From Gracilinanus agilis (taxonomy: Eukaryota), in the NCBI RefSeq assembly GCF_016433145.1, contig NC_058130.1, positions 126,327,122-126,391,121 on the forward strand: a stretch of DNA of 64,000 bases, written 5' to 3'. The first letter of the stretch is position 1. Each line of letters starts with the position of its first letter. The notes beneath the pieces were generated by a model. That model did no database searches. It was not told the origin of the DNA and saw only the letters and a program-made list of their open reading frames with translations. Below are positions 40,781 through 64,000 of this stretch, piece after piece. The position numbers and the translations under genes are program-made.

Positions 40781-40871
40781 CTAGGACCACAGCAAGCACG
40801 GTGGACAGCAGAAGCCAGTTGTTCTTGAGAAATCGCTTGTAGTCCCATCCCCTCCTCTCTGGCTTCCCCAT
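40781..40871 (-). CDS. SLC1A1: SLC1A1 (EAAC1/EAAT3 excitatory amino acid transporter) coding exon 1, 91 nt, phase-1 end
   Basis: Translates to [31 protein letters not shown], matching the mammalian EAAT3 N-terminus (human [31 protein letters not shown]). It has a perfect Kozak context GCCACCATGG and a donor CTAG|GTGAGA at 40780. The 91-nt coding length equals human exon 1 as I recall it. Confidence 0.97.
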
Positions 40872-46483: not shown

Positions 46484-47290
46484 GAAATGAATTTTCCTCC
46501 ATATTGTTGATCATGTGACCTGGGAAACTGAAAGAAATGTAAATCAATAACCACAATGAGAAGAACAAAAAAATAGAAATAACTTTCATCTACAAATACT
46601 TGATCTCTTTGCCAGGTGAAGATATAAGACAGCAAAGGCAGTGTAAGTTGAGAATATAAACTCATCTATAAAATCTTACTGAGTGTAGTGGAAGATAATG
46701 AAAAGCATCACATAAATCAGTGAGAAGCAGTGGAGAGGAAAACAAGATTTCAGGAAGCCTAGTTAGAGAACCAATTAAGCAAAGTCATCCTAAGGGCATT
46801 TAAAGATGAAAATGGAAGAAAGACAATAAATAGGTAAAAAATTAAAAAAGGTTTCTTTTTCAGTGATAGCAATGGTACCACATTTGAACTTTATATGGAA
46901 GTTTACATGTATCTTATAAGAGAGTGGAAATAGTAGTAATGAATACAATAATGGAGAAAGTATAGACTTTATTAATTAACTTTATTAATTAAAATTTATT
47001 AACAATAAGAATAATGATAGCCTTTATTGATTATCTCAAAATCTTTAATTCTCTTTTAGAGTGATAGCTTATTAATGTACTCTCTCTATAAAACATACTA
47101 TATTGCATATATGTAGATATACACACTGTACATATATAATATAGAAGCAAGAATATTGAAATCACTAGAATATTTGTTATCTACATGGAAAACTATTCTC
47201 TTTTAAAACATACTGCCAACTCATAGTCAAGAACAATTAAATAAGATGTGGCATTTTTGAGTCATACAATTTTAGCCCATTACAGTCCTG
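46484..47290 (+). mobile_element. Dong-R4-clade LINE fossil (Mam_R4-like), pre-RT and RT segments
   Basis: Degenerate translations: QILDLFAR*RYK (pre-RT), KWK..VKIKKGFF(QG)DS near 46820-46870, and ILKSLEYLLSTWKT..IRCGIFESYNFSPL at 47140-47283, resembling the R4 RT motif IRRGIFQGDSLSPL. Confidence 0.65.
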
Positions 47291-47293
47291 TCC

Positions 47294-47528
47294 TTCATTA
47301 TCTTCCACTATACTCAGTAGGATTTTTATAGATTAGTTTATTTTCTAAACCTATGCTGTCCTTTGCTGCCTTATATCTCTACCTAGCAAACAGATCAAGT
47401 ATTTGTATATAAAAGTTGTTTCTATAATTATTTTTTGTTCTCCTCATTGCAGTCATTGATTTACTTTGGTTATATTTCCTTAGGATTGCCAGGTCACATG
47501 ATCAACAATATCGAATACAATTCATTTC
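47294..47528 (-). mobile_element. Inverted copy of the R4 pre-RT segment at 46484-46702
   Basis: The reverse complement aligns to 46484-46702 at roughly 85-87% identity by manual count, with two small indels. Confidence 0.85.
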
Positions 47529-47738
47529 TATCCAAAGGATCAAATCCATGATCATTTAAAAACATTTTTATTTTTAGAAAAATTTTCCATGGTTCCATGA
47601 TTCATGTTCTTACTCCCCCCTCCACCCCCTTCCCTGCAGCCGATGTGTATTTCCACTGGTTTTAATATGTGTCATTGATCAAGACCTATTTCCATCACTG
47701 ATAATTGCAATGGGGTGGTCATTTAGAGTCAACATCCC

Positions 47739-47836
47739 AAATCATTTGGTGCATACATATTGAGCACTGAAGAAAAACCCATGTGTTCAAACAGTTGTTT
47801 TTCTTCAGTGCTCAATATGTATGCACCAAATGATTT
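47739..47836. repeat. Perfect 40-bp inverted repeat with 18-nt loop
   Basis: 47739-47778 aaatcatttggtgcatacatattgagcactgaagaaaaac is the exact reverse complement of 47797-47836. Confidence 0.98.
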
Positions 47837-48000
47837 AGCATCTAAATTTCTAAAGGAGAAATTGGCAGAGCTAAAGAAGGAAATAGATAGTAAAAAATAC
47901 TAGTAGGAGGCCTGAATCTTCCCCCATCAGATCTAGATAAATCAAGCCAAAAAATGAATAAGAAAGAGGTAAGAGAGGTGAATGAAATCCTAGAAAAATT
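47805..48000 (+). mobile_element. Inverted L1 ORF2 endonuclease segment inside the minus-strand L1
   Basis: Translates to SVLNMYAPNDLASKFLKEKLAELKKEIDSK/ILVGGLNLPPSDLDKSSQKMNKKEVREVNEILEK, containing the APE-type EN motifs YAPN and GDxN-like. Confidence 0.92.
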
Positions 48001-50070
48001 TACTCTATTTAGTTTCTTTCCCCATTTCTCTTAATATTATCTTCTTTCCCCCTTCTAGCTTTATATATATTTATACATAAATATGTATATGTCTTGACAT
48101 TTCATCCTATACATTTTGTCACTGTTCCCTCTCAGTGTACTTCTTCTAGCTACCCTGATGATAATAGCAATTTTTAAGAGTTACCAATATCATCTTTTCT
48201 TATAGGGATACAAATTGAACTTATCAGGTCCCTTAAAGAAAAGGTTATGGTTTTTTGTTCCTCCCCCCTTTTAATTACCTTTTGGTGATTCTCTTGAGTT
48301 CTGTGTTAGGGCAGCAAATTCTCTAAGCCTGTTTTTTTTCTTTATGAATGCTTGGAAGTCTTCAATTTTATTAAATGACCATACTTTCCCCTGTAAGAAT
48401 ATAGTCAGTTTTGCTGGATAGTTGATTCTTGGTTGTGGGCCTACTTCCCTTGCTTTCTGGAATATCATATTCCATGCCTTATAGTCCTTCAGTGTAGATG
48501 CAACCAGATCCTGTGTTATCCTAACTGTGGTTCCATGGTATCTGAAGGACTTCTTAGTGGCTTATAATATTTTTTCCTTGGTCTGGTAGTTCTTGAATTT
48601 AGCTATAACATTCCTGGGTGTTGTCAGTTGGGGATTAAATGTAGGAGGTGATCTGTGGATTCTTTCAATCTCCACTTTTCCCTCTTGTTCTAGAATGTTG
48701 GGGCAGTTTTCTTGGATAATTTCCTGTATGATGCTGTCCAGGCTTTTCCTTTTGTCATGATCTTCTGGTAGTCCAATAATTCTCAAATTGTCTCTCCTTG
48801 ATCAATTTTCAAGGTCTGTGATTGTGTCAATGAAGAGTTTCATATTTTCCTCAATTTTTTCATTCTTTTGATTTTGTTTTATATATTCTTGCTGTCTTAT
48901 GAAGTCATTTGCTTCTAGTTGTTGGATTCTGATTTTTAAAGACTGAATTTCTTCCCTGGATTTTTGGTCATCCTTCTCCTTCTGGTATGATTTTCTTTGT
49001 AGTTCATCTTTCACTTTCTTTGCCTCCTTTTCAAGCTTGTCAATTTTGGCTTTCAAGACACTATTTTCTAGTTTAAGTTCATGTATTTGTATTTTCTTTT
49101 CACAATTGTCTTCAGCCTCTGTTGACTGTTCTTTAAGTTCTTGAGTTAATTGAATTTTGAGTTCTTCCAAAGCCTGTGTCCATTTCACTGTGGTTTCTTG
49201 TTTTTAATTGGTGTTCCTTAATCTTCCTCTGATCAATTTGCTCTTTGTTCAATTTCTGGATAGAAGTTGTCAATTGTAGTTTCTTTTTTCTTTTTCTGTT
49301 GTTTACTCAATTTTTTCCCTTCTTTCCCCCCTGTAATTGGCTATAATTTTGCTCCTCTGATCATTTTTTTTAATCTGTGGGTTTGGGCTTTTCAGTACTG
49401 GAAGGGCTTCTTCTTTCCTCTGTTGACTAATTAGACTAGTGGGATCTGATGCCAGATCTTCAGCAGCTGGTAGTGAAAGCTAAAGATGTGATTTTATCTA
49501 CTTTCACTGCAGTCTATGGGGAAGGGGTGTTGGAGCTTCCCTGCCCTCTGAAGACTTCTTATGTTCTGTACTGATAAGATTAAGCCTTGGTGGGGTTGAT
49601 CTGCAGAGCTTGAAGTGCCCTGAGGCCAAAACCTCAAGAAAAAAGGGGGGTCAGTGCAAGATGGAGTGTTTGTTTGCCCTCTCTGCGTTTCTCCCCAAAC
49701 ACCTCCCTGTTGTCTGTGATCAGAGCCTTGAGTCTGGCACAGCATTCCCTCCAAACTAGCACTCATGCCCACCCCAAGATTCCAGGATCCGCTGGAGGCT
49801 CAGCACATTATGTTGGGGAGGGGACCTGGGACCTTCCTCCTTTTTCTCTCCTCCCACCAGACAGTTCAAAGAATTCAGGCTGTTTTTCTTTTTTTTCTGT
49901 ATATCTTTTAGGTTGGGTTCAACAGGACAATCCCCTAGCTCTGTTCTATCGTTAGATTTGGTTTTCTGTCCCTTCAAAGCCCTTTGTCCTTGATTGGTGT
50001 TAAAGTTTATAAAGGTCTGGAGCCTTGCTGCTTCTAAGTCACTATCTTCCCAGAATCTCCATGATAATTT

Positions 50071-51320
50071 TTGATAAAGAATGAAACATAACTTCTAAGT
50101 TAAAGAGGGAGTTGAACCAAAATATCTCATTATTCACTTAACATCCTTGGGTTATATATATCAAGCTTTAGGGCTATACTGAAAAACACAGTAAGTAACA
50201 TCTTTCTCTTCTGTATCTTCCAATCTTATCTTTACCCAATGATATAAAATATAATTTGGCCTCAATAAGGTCTTGTCCTTAGTGTATAGTAAAGAAAGAT
50301 AGAGATAGAAGGCTTCAAGTTTGAAACCAGAAGTCCAATTAAATCAGCAGACAAAGGCAATATTTACAAATGCCTTGGTATTTCCCCAGTAAGATAGGTC
50401 AGGCACATACCCACCAGGAAGAAAGAAATGGCTAAATACATTAAGAGTTTTATTGACATCCTTATATTAAAATTTAATGGGAAAACATTTGAAATAATTA
50501 ATATCTGTGTAGTATCCCTCTTAATAGATACTTTCAGAACTATAGAATGGACCATAACTGATTTGAAAAATATTTAAGCAGAAATCTGAACAATCACCAG
50601 AGGAGGAAGATGGATAAGCATGTCAAAACACAGAATAAACACATCGACAGTCTAAAGAAGGGAGCAGCTAGATGGTTCAGTGGATTAAGAATCAGGTCTG
50701 CAGATGGGATGTCCTAGGTTCAGATTTTAACTCTGATACTTCCTGGCGATGTGACCCTGTACAAGTCACTTAACCCCCGTTGCCTAGCCCTTATTGCTCT
50801 TCTATCTTGGAATCCATACAAAGTGTTGATTCTAATATGGAAAGTTAGAGTTTTAGAAACAATTTATAGAAATTCTTCTCAAGCAAAGAAAACATTGTTT
50901 CACTGGGCAATAGTAAAGACTGATAGAGACTATCTGCCAATAGATCTGTTAAATGTAATCCAAAGTGGTTTACCTTTGGACGTATCCCCTAAAATAATTA
51001 AAAACTAAGAGAGAAATCAAATGGCCTCTCATGAATTCTATATGAATTCAGCCAGCCATATGTACACCAATAAGCATGGAACAAGTGGCTGAGTCACAAA
51101 ATTTCTTTATGGAAACAGGGGTTTAAGGTGGAATTTAAGATCAGGCTATTGCCATTAGAAATTACAGGAGGATTCTCTATAAATAATCTGGACTTAAATT
51201 TTCAAGGCAGATGAAAAAAGGAAATGAGATAAATTTTTCCATATCTCAGGGCATGTTTCAAAATTTTAGGAACTGTTAAATATCTAACAAGATTTGATCT
51301 GGTGCCCAGAATTATAATAA
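50071..51320 (+). mobile_element. Dong-R4-clade LINE fossil: RT C-terminus, thumb and CCHC region (split by a SINE at ~50661-50845)
   Basis: NDIKY.FGLNK; EGFKFETRSPIKSADKGNIYKCLGI (50320-50382); ILILKFNGK; EWTITDLKNI; GGR; SQPYVHQ*AWNKWLS (51050-51094); FFMETG..DQAIAIRNYRRIL (51103-51177); HISG.C.KILGTVKYLTRFDLVPRII. This matches the R4 pattern NKWL..G.LF.ETEGF..AIQDQVI.TRNY..HI.SGC..YL.RHD.VA.II. Confidence 0.8.
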
Positions 51321-51536
51321 AAATAGCTAACATTTATTTAGTGCTTACTATATGCAGATGCTTTACAATGATTATCTCATTTGAGAAATTGCAACAACCC
51401 TGAGAGGTAGATTCTATTATGATTCCCATTTTACAGGAAAGGAACCTGAGCTAAACAGAATGACTTGCCCAGGATCATATAAATAATATGACGCCAGGTC
51501 TACTGCTCTATCCATTGTGCCATGTAGTGACCATCA

Positions 51537-52075
51537 TAAAGCTTCAAATTTGAAACAAGAGGTCAAATTAAATCAGCAGATGAAGATAATATTTATAAAT
51601 AGCTTGGTGTTCTCCAGGGAAGACATGTCAAGCACAAACATATGAAGGACAAAGCTGTGGCTATATACATTAAGAGAATGACTGGCATCCTTATATCAAA
51701 GTTCAATGGAAAAAATATTTCCCTTTCCCCTAACTCTCATGGGCTAACAGGTAACAAACTTTCATATTACCAATACAAATATAAAAATATCTGTGAAAGC
51801 TCAACCAATAAAGTATATTTGAAATAGAATATTATCATGTTATTGCTGCAAGTTATTGATATAGCAGTAACAAAAAAACTCAGCGACATTTTAAGTTGTT
51901 ATTTCTATGTCATCAAAAATTTCCAAGCTACACAGAATGAAAAGTTTTTAAAATAAAGAGGTGTAGTAGAAGAAATCAAAATAATGTTGGAACACAACTA
52001 CACATGATACTCATCATCCTGTCTGTTCTGTTACTGGAATTGTATCAAATAGACTTTCAGTGAACCTACAGAAAA
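51537..52075 (+). mobile_element. Second Dong-R4 fossil segment: thumb fused to RLE endonuclease region
   Basis: DNIYK*LGVLQGRHVKHKHMKDKAVAIYIKRMTGILISKFNGKN, then HGL..KLSYYQYK..ES..KVY, VIDIAV (51852-51869), NEKFLK, EEIK.M and PVCSVTGIVSNRLSVNLQK (52018-52074). Confidence 0.8.
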
Positions 52076-52209
52076 GGAGAGAATATTTTCAGTTGAGTGA
52101 AAAGATAGGAGTTTTACTGATTATTTTTCATTCCTTTTCATTACTTCATTGATGAGCCTAATATTTTATTCTATTATATAATAATATAATATAATATATA
52201 TATGAAATA

Positions 52210-52465
52210 TTAACTAGTTATCTACCTTTGCAATCATCTGAAAAATATGAAATGTTAAGGAAAAATAGTTGGATAGCAACTATTTGAACTGCATTGAATG
52301 AGGAGAAGAATGAAGCAATCAGAATAACAATGGTGCTGAAAAAAATGGCCAACAAACAAGACTGAAAACAAAAGGACTATGCCGTGAATGACATCATCTA
52401 CAAGAATCTGTTCAATCAAAGATATTGATGAAGAAACGTCAAACAAATGATTTAGTCAAGTGGAG
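52210..52465 (+). mobile_element. Third Dong-R4 fragment (pre-CCHC region, out of order)
   Basis: QD*KQK..; SIKDIDEETSNK*FSQV resembles W.QK.LHG..IDKE.SNKWL and parallels 51000-51100. Confidence 0.55.
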
Positions 52466-52477
52466 GATAGATTGGAG

Positions 52478-52827
52478 AGGTGATGGCAAACCTATGACAC
52501 GTGTGTCAGCACTGACATACGTAGCCATTTTCGATGACACACTGCCTCATGTGGCTGCATACAGAGAAGTATGAGGCCACATGCTGAGGATGAAACATTT
52601 GCTGTTGTGTAGTGTAGACACTCTGTGCACTATAGATGACAATTCTTCCTATATTAATTTACCTATTTTGGTTCATTAAATACAGTTACATGTTACATTT
52701 ATACATTTTTGTTATTTAAATTATAAATATTGTGAATTTTTTTTTTCTCAAAGTGACACACCACCTGCCTTATGCTTGTTTTTTTGGTGAATTTTGACAC
52801 ACCAAGCTCAAAGGTTTCCCATCACTG
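52478..52827. mobile_element. hAT non-autonomous element, 350 bp (hAT1/nhAT1-like)
   Basis: Ends (ag)gtgatggcaaacctatgacacgtgtgtca and ggtttcccatcactg; 8-bp TSD gattggag/gactggag; GACAC subterminal repeats. Confidence 0.88.
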
Positions 52828-52929
52828 GACTGGAGTGTGGATAAACTTGACACAAGGAGACTAAATAGATTATAATAATATATTAAAATCATAATTATAA
52901 TAATTCTCAGGTGAGAATTCATGGGGTCT

Positions 52930-53930
52930 TGAACTAAGTGGCAGATGAGTGAATTGAAAGGAGGAGATAGGTAAGAAATGTTGTGGAGTTAGAAACAACA
53001 AGATTTGATAACTGACTATTTACATGAGGTGAGCAAAAGTGAGAAGTCAAAGATCACACCAAAGTTGTAAAACTGAGTGACTAGAAGGATGGATATACTC
53101 AACAATGATAGGAACATTCATAAGAGGAGTTGATTTTGTGGCAAAGAGAATGAGTTCTGTTTGGAACATTTTAAATTTGAGATGCTCAGGAGATAATCAA
53201 GTGGAAATATCCAACAAAGCAGTTGGCGATACAAGATTGGAACTTGTGGGAAAGATTAGGGTTGAATATATAGATCTGGAAGTCATTTGCATAGAGACAT
53301 GTGGTAATTAAATCCATAGAAGCTGATGAGGTCACCATGTCAGAGAGTATAGATAATAGGCCCGAGGACAGAGCCTTACAGGACTCCCATAATTATGGTA
53401 ATGATGTAGATGATGAATAAGCAAAAGATACTGAGAATAAGCAATGGGATAAGAGAACTAGAAGAGAGAGGTGCCATAAAAACCTAGAGTGAAGATAGTA
53501 TCTAAGAGGAAAGGATAGTCAACAGTGTCAGATGATACAGAGAGATCAGGAAGTATAAGGATTGAGAAAATGCCATTAAATTTGGCATTAGTTACTTTGA
53601 AGAGAATATTTTCAGTTGAGTGTAAAGATAGGAGTTAGAAAAGGTTTAGAAGATAATGAGGGAAGACAAATGAAGGTACTGAGTATAGGTCCCTGCCCCC
53701 AAGAATTTAGTTGAGGAAGGGAAGAGAATTAAAGAATGATAGCTGGTAAGGATAGTAATATCTACTGAAATTTTCTTAAGGATGGAGGAGACTAGTGTAT
53801 GTTTGTAAGCAGCAAAGAAAGAACCAGTAGATGAAAGAGAAGAAAGGGGGAATAATAGTGGGGAGTAATTTGCTAGATAATACAGGTGAAAATGCCAGTC
53901 TCCAAATAATTAAAACTGAAGACCACTCAA
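52930..53930 (-). mobile_element. L2 LINE fragment
   Basis: Typical antisense L2 ORF2 sequence (gaatgagttctgtttggaacatt..gagatg..ggaaatatccaa). Confidence 0.75.
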
Positions 53931-56835: not shown

Positions 56836-58402
56836 GGAAGATGGCAGAGGAGGATGTAAAGTTTTCTCACCCTCCTGAAACCTCTCAGAAACTACCAAAA
56901 ATAACTCCATAAAATCAACACAAAAAGAGTAAAGACAGAAGTCAGGAGTCAAGCTGAACAGCTAAGGACAGCTAAGAAGGTTGTCTAACTTTCTTGGCCT
57001 CAGGCAAGCCAGTCATTGGCTCCAGAAGCAGAAAAGAACAAACAGAGAGAATCCACAAAATAGTCCAGGAGGGCCCCTTGTTTGTTAATGGGCCCCTTGG
57101 AATCTGAATCTTCTGGCAGAAGATCCAGGGAGCACCTGTACCTCAACTCTGGAGAACTCAGCTGGCCTGTACCTAGAGACTGAAGGAGTGGACACCTCAG
57201 AGTCTGGAAGTCTCATTGCTAACAAAGGAGGGACTTTGGAAACCTGAGAAAACATGAACTGGACACTTGCTCTGTTGAGGGCTGTGGATAGGAGAGAAGA
57301 GACTTTGCTGAGGGCTTGGGCCCCATCAGCTGTGGTAACTCCCAGGATAGTAGAGTCCCTGGTTGTTGCCACTGGGGGAGGTAGACTGGCTGCTTACTGT
57401 TGTAGTGGTAGAACTACTCAGGGTCTCTGGTTGGATTGTCTGAGGTCAATCACAGACTGAGTCTTGAATGGGGTACTTGAATGAATACATATGATTCTGG
57501 ACTCTAAAAATTACAGTAACCAAAAAGGACCCTGGAAAACACACACGTGCACACATACACACACACGAAATTTGGGATACCACCCATCAGTACAATAGGA
57601 ACCTAATCCAAAAAAGACAGTAATTAAGACTATTGGCCTGGGTGCTAAAATTTAAATACATAAATTAATAAATATGAGCAAGCAAAGAAGAAAGGACCCA
57701 ACTATTATTAGCTATTAAGGGGCCAGAGAAGACCGTGGCTCAAAATCAGACGATAATGAAATAAGAATACCTACTTCAAAAACAGTGAAGAAACACAATA
57801 AGTAGCTGCACAAAAAGAGCTTTTGGTAGAATTTTAAAAAGACCTCAAAAACCAAATGAGAGAGAAGGAGGAAAAAATTAGAAGAAAAAAATAAGAGCAA
57901 TATAAGAAAATCAAGAAAATTATGAAAGAAAGATCATCCAAATGAAAAAAGGGATCCAGAAACTTATTGAAAAAAATGATGTATTAAAAATGAGAATATG
58001 TCAAGGAGAAGCTAATAATTTCCCAAGATGAGAAATAATAAAGAAAAATCAAAAGAATGAAATAATAGAATAGAATAGGAAACATTTCATCAGAAAAACA
58101 TCTTACCTGGAAAATAGATAAAAGAAAGATAATCTAACAATTGTTGGACTCTCAGAAAGTTATGATTAATAAAAGAGTTTAGTTGCCATACTCTAATAAA
58201 TCATCAAGGAAAGCTGCCCAGAAGTTGTAGAAACAGAGGGTAAAATAGAAATGGAAAGAATCCATCAATCATCATCTGAAGGAGATGCAAAGATGAAAAT
58301 GCATGCATTATTGCTAAGTTCCATAGCCCCTAGGTTAAGGATAAAACTATAAGCAATAAGAAAAAAACAATTTAAATACTACAAAGCTGTGTAATTAGAA
58401 TC
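56836..58402 (+). mobile_element. L1 5'UTR plus most of ORF1, decayed, broken at its 3' side
   Basis: Starts ggaagatggcagag; ORF1 remnants (LENR..DNLTIVGL, IIKESCPEVVETEGKIEMERIHQS, FKY..IRI). Confidence 0.8.
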
Positions 58403-61620: not shown

Positions 61621-62859
61621 CATCTTTATTTTATTCTAAAAATTAAGACAATATGGTACAAAAAAATGAGCATCCATTATGTCAGAGATACATTACAAAG
61701 AATATTGAAAACTGATTATTAAGCAACATTGTGGCAAGAAAGAAAAGTCCTGATTCCCTAGAAACTAGTGAACTGTTGATGAATATAAACTTGAACAAAC
61801 TGGCTCAGAAAATTTCACAAATTATTGGGGATTTTTGTTCATACCAGTTAACCACCAGAATGTAAACTCATTTAAAACTTCAAGCATGAAATCAATATTC
61901 TAATCTTGCCATTAATATAATTTATAGCAGGTGGTAGTTGTGGGGGCTGAGTGGGGAGAGTATAGATTTGAAGTATACAATATTCTCTATGTAGATGTCA
62001 TTTGATTCTTATAACATTCTGTGAGGTTGATGTTATTACCAAAGGCCTGCTGAGGTGGCTCATTCTGCCTTTGGACAGCTCTAGTTTTCAGGAAAGTTGG
62101 CTTTAAACTGAGTTGAAATTTGTCTTCCTATAATTTTTTGCTCATCGCTATCATCTCTTTCTTCTGAGGCCATTCAGAAAATCCTTTCTCCCTTGTATAC
62201 ATGGCAGCTTTTCAAATACTTGATTATTGTTATAATATCCTATTTTCTTTTCTAGACCAAGTATCTCCACTTCCTTCAATATAGCATGGTCACCCTGACT
62301 CAGGGGTGTGCTGGTGCCAGCTTGGATCAGCTCCCAAAGGCAGATCGTTAAATTTTCAGTGTAAGCCTTTACATCTTGGAAATTGGCAAATGCTACAAAT
62401 CAAGGCTTCACTTATTGTTTTAGTAATTGTCTGGATTTAGGAAAGTGATGGAGAAAATATTAATAATATATATTAAACATGATATTGTGTTGGGGATACT
62501 CTTTTTTCCTAGATTGCTTGTTGTTAAACATTTATTAGCACTCTGTTGCCCAGTATTCTTGGCATTCTGATCATAGAATCTCAGAGTTGGAATCGATCAG
62601 TATTTATTAAGCCCCTACTATGTTCTAGGCACTATGCTAGATGTTGGAGTGTGAAGATAAAACAGTTGTGGCTTTCATGGAACTTATATTCTATCAGGGG
62701 AGACATTGTACCTATTTAAGATTATATAGATTAAAGGCAAACAAGATTTTGAACCTTATCCTAGAATAGGAAAATGTTGGAGTTTGGTGAATACAGCGTC
62801 CCATGGCCATATCTGTGCTGAAGGAAAATCTTTCTGGAAGGTATGTGAAGGATGGACTG

Positions 62860-63290: not shown

Positions 63291-64000
63291 CTCCATATTG
63301 GTTTTGGCTCTGCCTCAGAGCCATCTACTTCAACCTATACCTGAGTGAGAAATAGAGTAATAATGTCCTGCACAAAGGCTCATCCAGACTCAGTGATCTT
63401 CAGTGATAGGGAACTCACCATTACCGAATCTACCTACTGGATTGTCATTCAATTGTTTTTCAGTCCTTTCTGACTCTTCATGATCCCATTTGGGATTTTC
63501 TTGGCAAAAAGCCTGGACAGGTTTTCCATTTCATTCTCCAACTCATTTTATAAATGAAGAAAGTGAGACAAACAGAGTTAAGTGACTTGCCCAAGGTAGC
63601 ACAGCTAATAAGTGTTTAAGGCCAGATTTTTACGAGTCTTTCTGATTCCACACCCAGCACTCTATCCACTGTACCACTTAGCTGCATTTACATCATCTAT
63701 AAAATGACATATTAAATAGCCTTTAAGCAGGAATGTACTGGGAAATATTAAAGAATCAGCTCTCTGGAAAAGTACTCATCACACACTTTTTAAAAAACCT
63801 TTACCTTCCATCTTCTAATTGATACTAAATATTGGTTCCAAAGCAGGAGATTGGTAAGAGCTAGGCATTTGGGGTTAAGCAATTTACCCAGGGGGACACA
63901 GCTAGGATATCTCTGAGACAAAACAACTTTTTAAGTTTAATTTATATTATTAATATTTTTCATCACTTTCCTAAATTTAGACAATCAACAAAACAATTAA

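What the first reader, a model, noticed from the sequence alone, without database searches (positions are those of the whole stretch)
46484..52465. Near-complete domain series of a rare Dong-R4-clade (RLE endonuclease) LINE fossil upstream of SLC1A1
Seen: once the L1, SINE and MIR insertions are removed, the apparently unique AT-rich DNA translates (with stops and frameshifts) into a series of motifs: pre-RT; RT (IRCGIFESYNFSPL, NP..FL, NDIK..FGLNK); thumb (YKCLGI, LKFNGK, EWT.TDL, GGR); NKWL..ETG..DQAIAIRNY; zinc knuckle remnant (HISG.C..KYLTR.D.V.RII); and RLE (YYQYK, IDIAV, EK..K, PV.SVTGIV). Known: this order and these motifs define R4/Dong non-LTR elements, which use a restriction-like endonuclease, are often target-specific, and are represented in mammals mainly by the sparse ancient Mam_R4 family. 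Inference: this could be an unusually extensive copy, able to extend the consensus or represent an unannotated marsupial subfamily. Its survival 5.5-11.5 kb upstream of a TSS makes it a candidate for exaptation.
Basis: partly seen in the sequence, partly recalled or inferred. Interest (0 to 1): 0.7.

Follow-up and report, generated by a model that had tools for sequence, protein, structure and literature searches.

The report
Insect-like Dong LINE fossil, ordinary copy
This is a broken, half-length and otherwise ordinary copy of an old jumping gene that is scattered through this mammal's genome, but its family is far closer to a beetle element than to lizard relatives, so it likely reached early mammals by horizontal transfer from insects.

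Summary
Identity confirmed: 47011-52334 (+) is a dead, 5'-truncated R4/Dong-type LINE, split by an L1, a SINE, a MIR and two local duplications, 6-11.5 kb upstream of the SLC1A1 start codon. The other claims fail. 46484-46959 is an RTE-type LINE, not 'pre-RT'. The copy holds about 46% of the ~3.8 kb element; 20 of 84 clipped sister loci cover more, and 7 of 18 extended ones reach the 5' end. It is 73% identical to the family majority (median 75.5%), so there is no sign of constraint or of a subfamily. The family is probably Mam_R4 (no reference sequence to test). The interesting result is at family level. The family protein is 58% identical to a weevil element and 37% to anole R4-type protein; trees nest it among insect elements (100/99), and grouping with anole is rejected (AU p=1.4e-9). 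It likely targeted (TAA)n like silkworm Dong: 15 of 37 3' ends have TAA-like runs (background 2%), 8 of 37 sit in MIR tails (background 3/600). Ancient insect-to-mammal transfer is the best reading (~0.6).

The parts
40781..40871 (-). SLC1A1 (EAAT3) first coding exon; context only
   Evidence: phmmer to EAAT3 chains, E 2.2e-9
46484..46959 (+). RTE-type LINE fragment (linker between APE endonuclease and RT); not part of the R4 element
   Evidence: (328 first-look candidates), (second-family profile hit 46535-46959, E 2.6e-67; no R4 similarity); RTE label rests on APE-type and RT motifs in that family's majority sequence, recognised from recall
47011..47293 (+). R4/Dong element, 5' truncation point and RT middle subdomains (DY..FDS and GIFQGDSLSPL remnants)
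   Evidence: (profile 749-1000, E 4e-30)
47294..47528 (-). inverted local duplicate of 46484-46702 (RTE piece) inserted into the R4 RT
   Evidence: 81% over 235 nt; 34 shared derived sites of 47/51; at most 0.32 with 10 dispersed copies; sister copies L058/L059 run straight across
47529..47557 (+). short R4 RT piece (NP..F motif) ending in the left L1 target duplication
   Evidence: sequence
47558..50070 (-). L1 insertion (ORF1 region) with 12-bp target duplication
   Evidence: (PF02994 E 1.1e-14, PF17490)
50071..50659 (+). R4 element: end of RT and thumb
   Evidence: (profile 992-1516, E 3e-94)
50660..50857 (+). multi-copy SINE-like insertion
   Evidence: many copies in the window
50858..51316 (+). 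R4 element: linker, NKWL..ETG..QDQ region and decayed zinc knuckle
   Evidence: (profile 1636-2094, E 3e-79)
51317..51535 (-). MIR-like SINE inserted into the element
   Evidence: MIR label from recall of the core sequence
51538..51720 (+). direct local duplicate of the thumb segment 50309-50485
   Evidence: 76% over 177 nt; 24 shared derived sites of 55/42; at most 0.34 with 47 dispersed copies
51728..52334 (+). R4 element: restriction-like endonuclease remnant, 3' UTR and decayed TAA-like end; holds a 36-bp copy (52078-52113) of 53601-53636
   Evidence: profile 2106-2648, E 6.5e-57; TAA score 16 of 24
52343..52464 (+). second fragment of the same family directly behind the 3' end, probably an independent insertion
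   Evidence: profile 1765-1879, E 2.3e-7; 7 shared derived sites of 28/32, within background

Best explanation
The stretch is a dead, 5'-truncated copy of a dispersed R4/Dong-type LINE family, later cut by other insertions; it likely does nothing today, and the family likely copied itself by target-primed reverse transcription into TAA repeats and likely came from an insect lineage. Shown: one ORF with RT, CCHC knuckle and C-terminal restriction-like nuclease in the family; ~3.8 kb full length; TAA-like runs at both ends; insertions into MIR tails; 27% decay of this copy; placement among insect elements. Inferred: nuclease cleavage of (TAA)n and TPRT (established for RLE-type elements, not assayed), activity overlapping MIR activity in the Mesozoic, identity with Mam_R4, and horizontal origin. 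Confidence: ordinary neutral R4/Dong fossil 0.9; same family as Mam_R4/X4_LINE 0.85; TAA targeting 0.85; insect-linked horizontal origin 0.6.
For: Family: searches of the own genome with three R4 pieces gave 22, 41 and 40 matches on all large contigs, colinear with the window; the majority of ~60 copies reads as a nearly open ORF with FQGDSLSPL, YMDDIK, CRLC..H..C and nuclease motifs. Clade: an alignment of RT pieces hit only three PDB sequences, all R2 proteins, none L1; an in-frame sister piece found 732 proteins, led by ~1,100-1,200-aa single-ORF elements; 6 of 6 scanned have RVT_1 and no APE domain. Ordinary copy: 1770 profile positions covered, 20 of 84 loci cover more; 1212/1656 = 73.2% to the majority against a median of 75.5% for 79 copies. 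Target: TAA score >=16/24 in 15 of 37 3' ends against 2.1% background; antisense MIR tail directly behind 8 of 37 against 3 of 600; TAA-like runs before 4 of 6 intact 5' ends, by eye; copy L048 matches 11 of the first 12 bases of silkworm Dong's 5' end as given in a primer of PMC3774820; Dong targets TAA (PMC3812793). Origin: 58% to weevil P0001, 47% moth, 45% psyllid, 37% anole; weevil-moth is 50%; clade with P0001 and P0165 100/99 and 95 under a mixture model; AU p=1.4e-9 against majority+anole; 16 of 16 single copies found by DNA alone score best with P0001 or P0165 and lower with anole.
Against: No named Dong, R4, Rex6 or Mam_R4 reference sequence was obtained; the relatives are named only by host, and the closest co-relative P0165 has no host name. 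The only named vertebrate relative is anole; fish Rex6 and fossil elements of other vertebrates are not represented by name. Identities of dispersed copies are in-sample and the copies were chosen by similarity, which raises their median. Only 5 of 73 truncated 5' junctions had a perfect (TAA)3, the window's own 5' junction is only weakly TAA-like, and a 3' TAA run could partly be an element-encoded tail. The majority 5' terminus matches Dong at only 11 of 18 ungapped bases (about 0.1% per position by chance). No ribozyme family was found at 5' ends. Constraint cannot be excluded from one genome.
Confidence: 0.85

Rival explanations
1. The copy has been exapted as a regulatory element of SLC1A1.
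For: It lies 6-11.5 kb upstream of the start codon; human Dong-R4 relics are often constrained (25,967 of 120,346 bases, PMC3428314 Table 1).
Against: It is slightly more diverged than the median copy, evenly over its four parts (72-76%), and has taken five later insertions or duplications and a 36-bp templated insert. With thousands of copies per marsupial genome some will lie near promoters by chance.
Confidence: 0.07
2. The family was inherited vertically: an old, slowly evolving Dong-like lineage persisted from early bilaterians into mammals and was lost or not sampled in other vertebrates.
For: RLE-type elements keep several old parallel lineages in animals (stated for R2 in PMC3774820); vertebrate sampling here is one named lizard lineage; one Dong-R4 fossil in human predates amniotes (PMC9004415 Table 5).
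Against: The family is closer to the weevil element (58%) than the weevil element is to moth (50%), fly (51%), louse (51%) or psyllid (48%) elements, and it is nested several well-supported nodes inside the insect group. [quoted passage not shown]
Confidence: 0.3
3. The copy represents an undescribed marsupial subfamily or extends the known consensus.
For: Not compared with Dfam or Repbase, so not formally excluded; the majority built here spans ~3.8 kb, which may be longer than the library consensus.
Against: All 25 best genome matches of the weevil protein fall in the same profile; identities are unimodal (0.67-0.81); the window copy adds no sequence that other copies lack and has no match to the 5' 1.3 kb.
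Confidence: 0.1

Closest known systems
Mam_R4 (RepeatMasker class LINE/Dong-R4); Repbase human R4-clade family X4_LINE
   Same: The one RLE-type LINE relic known in human before 2022 besides Hero (PMC9004415; PMC5753468 lists X4_LINE under R4); Dong-R4 is abundant in a marsupial (12,719 copies, 4.9 Mb, PMC9631953); age overlapping MIR fits a therian-wide family (inference).
   Different: No sequence comparison was possible. Nothing in the window copy is known to differ.
Dong of Bombyx mori and related insect elements
   Same: TAA target (PMC3812793; here), similar 5' terminal bases, single ORF with RT, zinc knuckle and C-terminal nuclease; nearest proteins are insect.
   Different: Dead and 25% decayed; nearest relative is a weevil element (58%) rather than lepidopteran ones (47%); the 5' self-cleaving ribozyme known for Dong was not demonstrated here.
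Anolis carolinensis R4-type elements (Rex6/anole group)
   Same: Same domain order; 37-38% identity over ~810 aa.
   Different: A separate, well-supported branch; monophyly with the mammalian family rejected. Their R4 label is inferred (PMC5753468 reports R4 in anole; the records are named only as RT-domain proteins).
R2 retrotransposons (solved structures 9nl3, 9dou, 9nl2)
   Same: Only PDB matches of the RT alignment; same nuclease type and TPRT mechanism (established knowledge).
   Different: Distant (E 1e-5 to 3e-4); R2 targets 28S rDNA, while these copies are dispersed.

Membership tests
R4/Dong clade | non-LTR RT closest to R4/Dong-type proteins rather than L1, L2, CR1 or RTE | tested here: met
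   no named Dong/R4 reference was among the hits, so the label rests on domain order, TAA target and 5' end
R4/Dong clade | single ORF, no APE endonuclease, C-terminal CCHC knuckle plus restriction-like nuclease | tested here: met
   family majority aligns to P0165/P0001 from residue ~8 to the end; in the window copy the knuckle cysteines and second nuclease Asp are decayed
Dong subgroup | insertion into (TAA)n | tested here: met
   15 of 37 against 2.1%; 8 of 37 in MIR tails against 3 of 600; 4 of 6 intact 5' ends; weak at truncated 5' junctions (5 of 73)
Dong subgroup | HDV-like ribozyme at the 5' end | tested here: inconclusive
   no Rfam hit in 7 loci; copies are too decayed; the window copy lacks this end
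Mam_R4 / X4_LINE | DNA identity to the library consensus | not testable with these tools
   no Dfam or Repbase sequence is available in the tools
Mam_R4 / X4_LINE | presence in both marsupials and placentals | not testable with these tools
   only the own genome can be searched; age overlap with MIR-like SINEs is indirect
Rex6/anole R4 group | monophyly with the anole element | tested here: not met
   AU p=1.38e-9
RTE clade (46484-46959 and 47294-47528) | APE endonuclease followed in one ORF by RT | tested here: inconclusive
   majority of 14 loci shows IDY..SDH and RT-start motifs flanking this piece (motif meaning recalled); single frames of 5 loci gave no Pfam hit
exapted regulatory TE | cross-species constraint or regulatory chromatin | not testable with these tools
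   within-genome proxy negative

The most novel reading that the evidence does not exclude
The only Dong/R4-type LINE of therian mammals did not descend from the vertebrate Rex6/anole lineage but entered a Mesozoic mammal by horizontal transfer from an insect (beetle-like) lineage, kept its TAA-repeat targeting, and used MIR tails as landing sites: one of the oldest traceable insect-to-mammal retrotransposon transfers, with near-full-length fossils still readable in marsupials.
Probability: 0.55. Interest if true: 0.6.

Novelty: new member of a known kind. Interest (0 to 1): 0.35.

Why it matters
The single copy matters little. The family-level result would matter to transposon biologists: it gives a mammalian sequence-specific LINE a target (TAA repeats, including MIR tails), a full ~3.8 kb anatomy, and an origin among insect elements, which would be an old cross-phylum transfer of a retrotransposon type thought to move mostly vertically. 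It is directly testable with Dfam and public vertebrate and beetle genomes. Nine literature searches listed no paper stating this origin, but Repbase/Dfam notes and the opossum repeat paper (PMC1899126, not held) were not seen, and the class name 'Dong-R4' suggests the likeness to Dong is already recognised.

Tried and rejected
Pfam on single frames of the window's R4 pieces: nothing; on sister pieces and on 5 of 14 RTE-type loci: nothing. Word-based protein search with the window's thumb frame: 83 candidates, none scored. Profile of 44 full-length relatives against six frames: only the two thumb segments were significant, so frameshift-aware alignment was used. Rfam at 5' ends: no ribozyme. 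Sequencing runs for 51536-52340: no RNA holder listed; no reads were laid. Earlier findings: none. Rejected: 46484-47010 as R4 'pre-RT'; an R4 5' part further upstream in the window (best 5' profile hit E 0.03, elsewhere); the thumb duplicate as an independent insertion; contamination by insect DNA (copies lie on chromosome-scale contigs, are ~25% decayed and are nested with mammalian SINEs and L1); long-branch attraction or consensus artefact (end branch 0.36, frame set with the anole protein, mixture model, single copies). PMC11691648 and PMC4408406 held nothing relevant; the supplement of PMC9004415 does not mention Dong or Mam_R4. Trees used 33 and 22 selected rows out of about 400 proteins fetched.
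Full report
Setting. The first coding exon of SLC1A1 starts at 40871 on the minus strand, so the finding lies 5.6-11.6 kb upstream of the start codon; the transcription start itself was not mapped.

Observation. Single frames give no Pfam match, apart from L1 ORF1 in the 47558-50070 insert. Searches of the own genome with three candidate pieces returned 22, 41 and 40 matches, colinear with the window. A profile from these dispersed copies, window excluded, finds in the window 47019-47302, 50058-50594, 50862-51316 and 51728-52334 in order, plus 51538-51720 and 52343-52464 out of order. Joined in a script, the ordered pieces align to residues 562-1138 of a 1139-aa weevil element at 164/541 identity, score 352 against 39-50 for 8 shuffles and 109 for the anole protein.

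Corrections to the anatomy. 46484-46959 belongs to another abundant family (328 first-look candidates) whose majority shows endonuclease and RT-start motifs of RTE type around this piece (motif meaning recalled; Pfam silent on 5 of 14 loci); it scores like shuffled DNA against R4 proteins. 47294-47528 is its inverted copy, sharing 34 of 47/51 derived sites with it against at most 0.32 with 10 dispersed copies, and 51538-51720 is a direct copy of the thumb, sharing 24 of 55/42 derived sites against at most 0.34 with 47 copies: both are local duplications made after insertion. 52343-52464 shares no excess (7 of 28/32) and is probably a second insertion behind the 3' end (all). The L1 has a 12-bp target duplication.

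What it is. The majority of the dispersed copies reads as a nearly open single ORF with RT, CCHC knuckle and C-terminal restriction-like nuclease. An alignment of RT pieces hits only three PDB sequences, all R2 proteins. An in-frame 129-aa piece of sister copy L059 finds 732 proteins among 1.84 billion, led by a Sitophilus oryzae protein; 6 of 6 scanned carry RVT_1 and no APE domain. This is an R4/Dong-type element. No named Dong, R4 or Mam_R4 sequence was obtained.

Is this copy special? No. It covers 1770 positions of the 3' profile; 20 of 84 loci, though clipped to 3-4.5 kb, cover more. Extending 18 long copies upstream showed a further ~1.2 kb, with 7 of 18 reaching the 5' end, giving an element of about 3.8 kb, of which the window holds about 46%. 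Its identity to the majority is 1212/1656 = 73.2%, below the median of 75.5% for 79 copies (in-sample, so slightly inflated). All 25 best genome matches of the weevil protein belong to the same profile. In print, Dong-R4 has 12,719 copies in antechinus (PMC9631953, Table 2 passage) and 550 in human, where a high share is constrained (PMC3428314, Table 1 passage); Mam_R4 is named as the RLE-type human relic (PMC9004415, passages and section 9) and X4_LINE as the human R4 family (PMC5753468, passages). By parsimony this family is Mam_R4; this is inference.

How it worked. Shown: 15 of 37 intact 3' ends are followed by a TAA-like run (score at least 16 of 24; background 2.1% of 3000), and 8 of 37 by the antisense tail of a MIR-like SINE (background 3 of 600). 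Four of six intact 5' ends follow a TAA-like run, by eye, and copy L048 matches 11 of the first 12 bases of silkworm Dong's 5' end as printed in a primer (PMC3774820, passages and section 16); the majority matches 11 of 18 without gaps. Dong targets TAA repeats (PMC3812793, passage). Against: only 5 of 73 truncated 5' junctions hold a perfect (TAA)3, and no ribozyme family was found. Inferred: the nuclease nicked (TAA)n and primed reverse transcription; in this copy synthesis stopped in the RT. Copies lie in MIR tails and this copy holds a MIR, and both show similar decay, so their activity overlapped.

Origin. The family protein is 58% identical to the weevil element and to unnamed P0165, 51% to a fruit-fly, 47% to a moth, 45% to a psyllid and 37% to the anole element, whereas weevil and moth share 50%. 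All named rows among the 120 best relatives of the weevil protein are insects. A 33-row tree places the family with P0001 and P0165 (100/99) inside the insect group; a 22-row mixture-model tree agrees (95); union with anole is rejected (AU p=1.4e-9); 16 of 16 single copies found by DNA alone score best with P0001 or P0165. [quoted passage not shown] Horizontal transfer between an insect lineage and early mammals is the best reading; limits are one named vertebrate lineage, an unnamed nearest co-relative, old parallel lineages, one pre-amniote Dong-R4 fossil in human, and an untested direction. Nine searches (listings only, except the papers named) showed no statement of this origin; library notes and the opossum repeat paper were not seen and may hold it.

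Verdict. Real, correctly assigned, but an ordinary half-length copy with no sign of function (interest about 0.15 alone). The insect nesting and TAA/MIR-tail targeting of the family raise the overall interest to 0.35.

Noticed in passing
window 46484-53636: Three single-copy local duplications cluster here (inverted 235 nt, direct 177 nt, direct 36 nt at 97%), about 0.6, 1.1 and 1.5 kb from their sources and of different ages; only one other such single-copy pair was seen in the window (62414-62478 / 63935-63997). They look like templated insertions from repair.
   Followed up: partly
window 52478-52827: DNA-transposon-like element with ~16-bp terminal inverted repeats and an 8-bp target duplication (52470-52477 / 52828-52835), hAT-like; it ends the second R4 fragment.
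   Followed up: no
window 47734-47841: 45-bp near-perfect inverted repeat (96%) at the junction inside the L1 insertion, as from a twin-primed inversion.
   Followed up: no
L002, L014, L036, L069, L073, L080 (5' junctions): Several copies begin directly behind what looks like the 3' end and TAA tail of another copy of the same family, suggesting insertion into earlier copies' tails.
   Followed up: no
L109 (G000:C1:114695390-114698790), L111, L119, L110, L116, L113, L108: Near-full-length copies with the 5' end and the N-terminal ORF; far better material than the window copy for describing the family.
   Followed up: partly
window 57984-58264: Another L1 ORF1-like piece, 69% identical to 48656-48939 and in the opposite orientation.
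   Followed up: no
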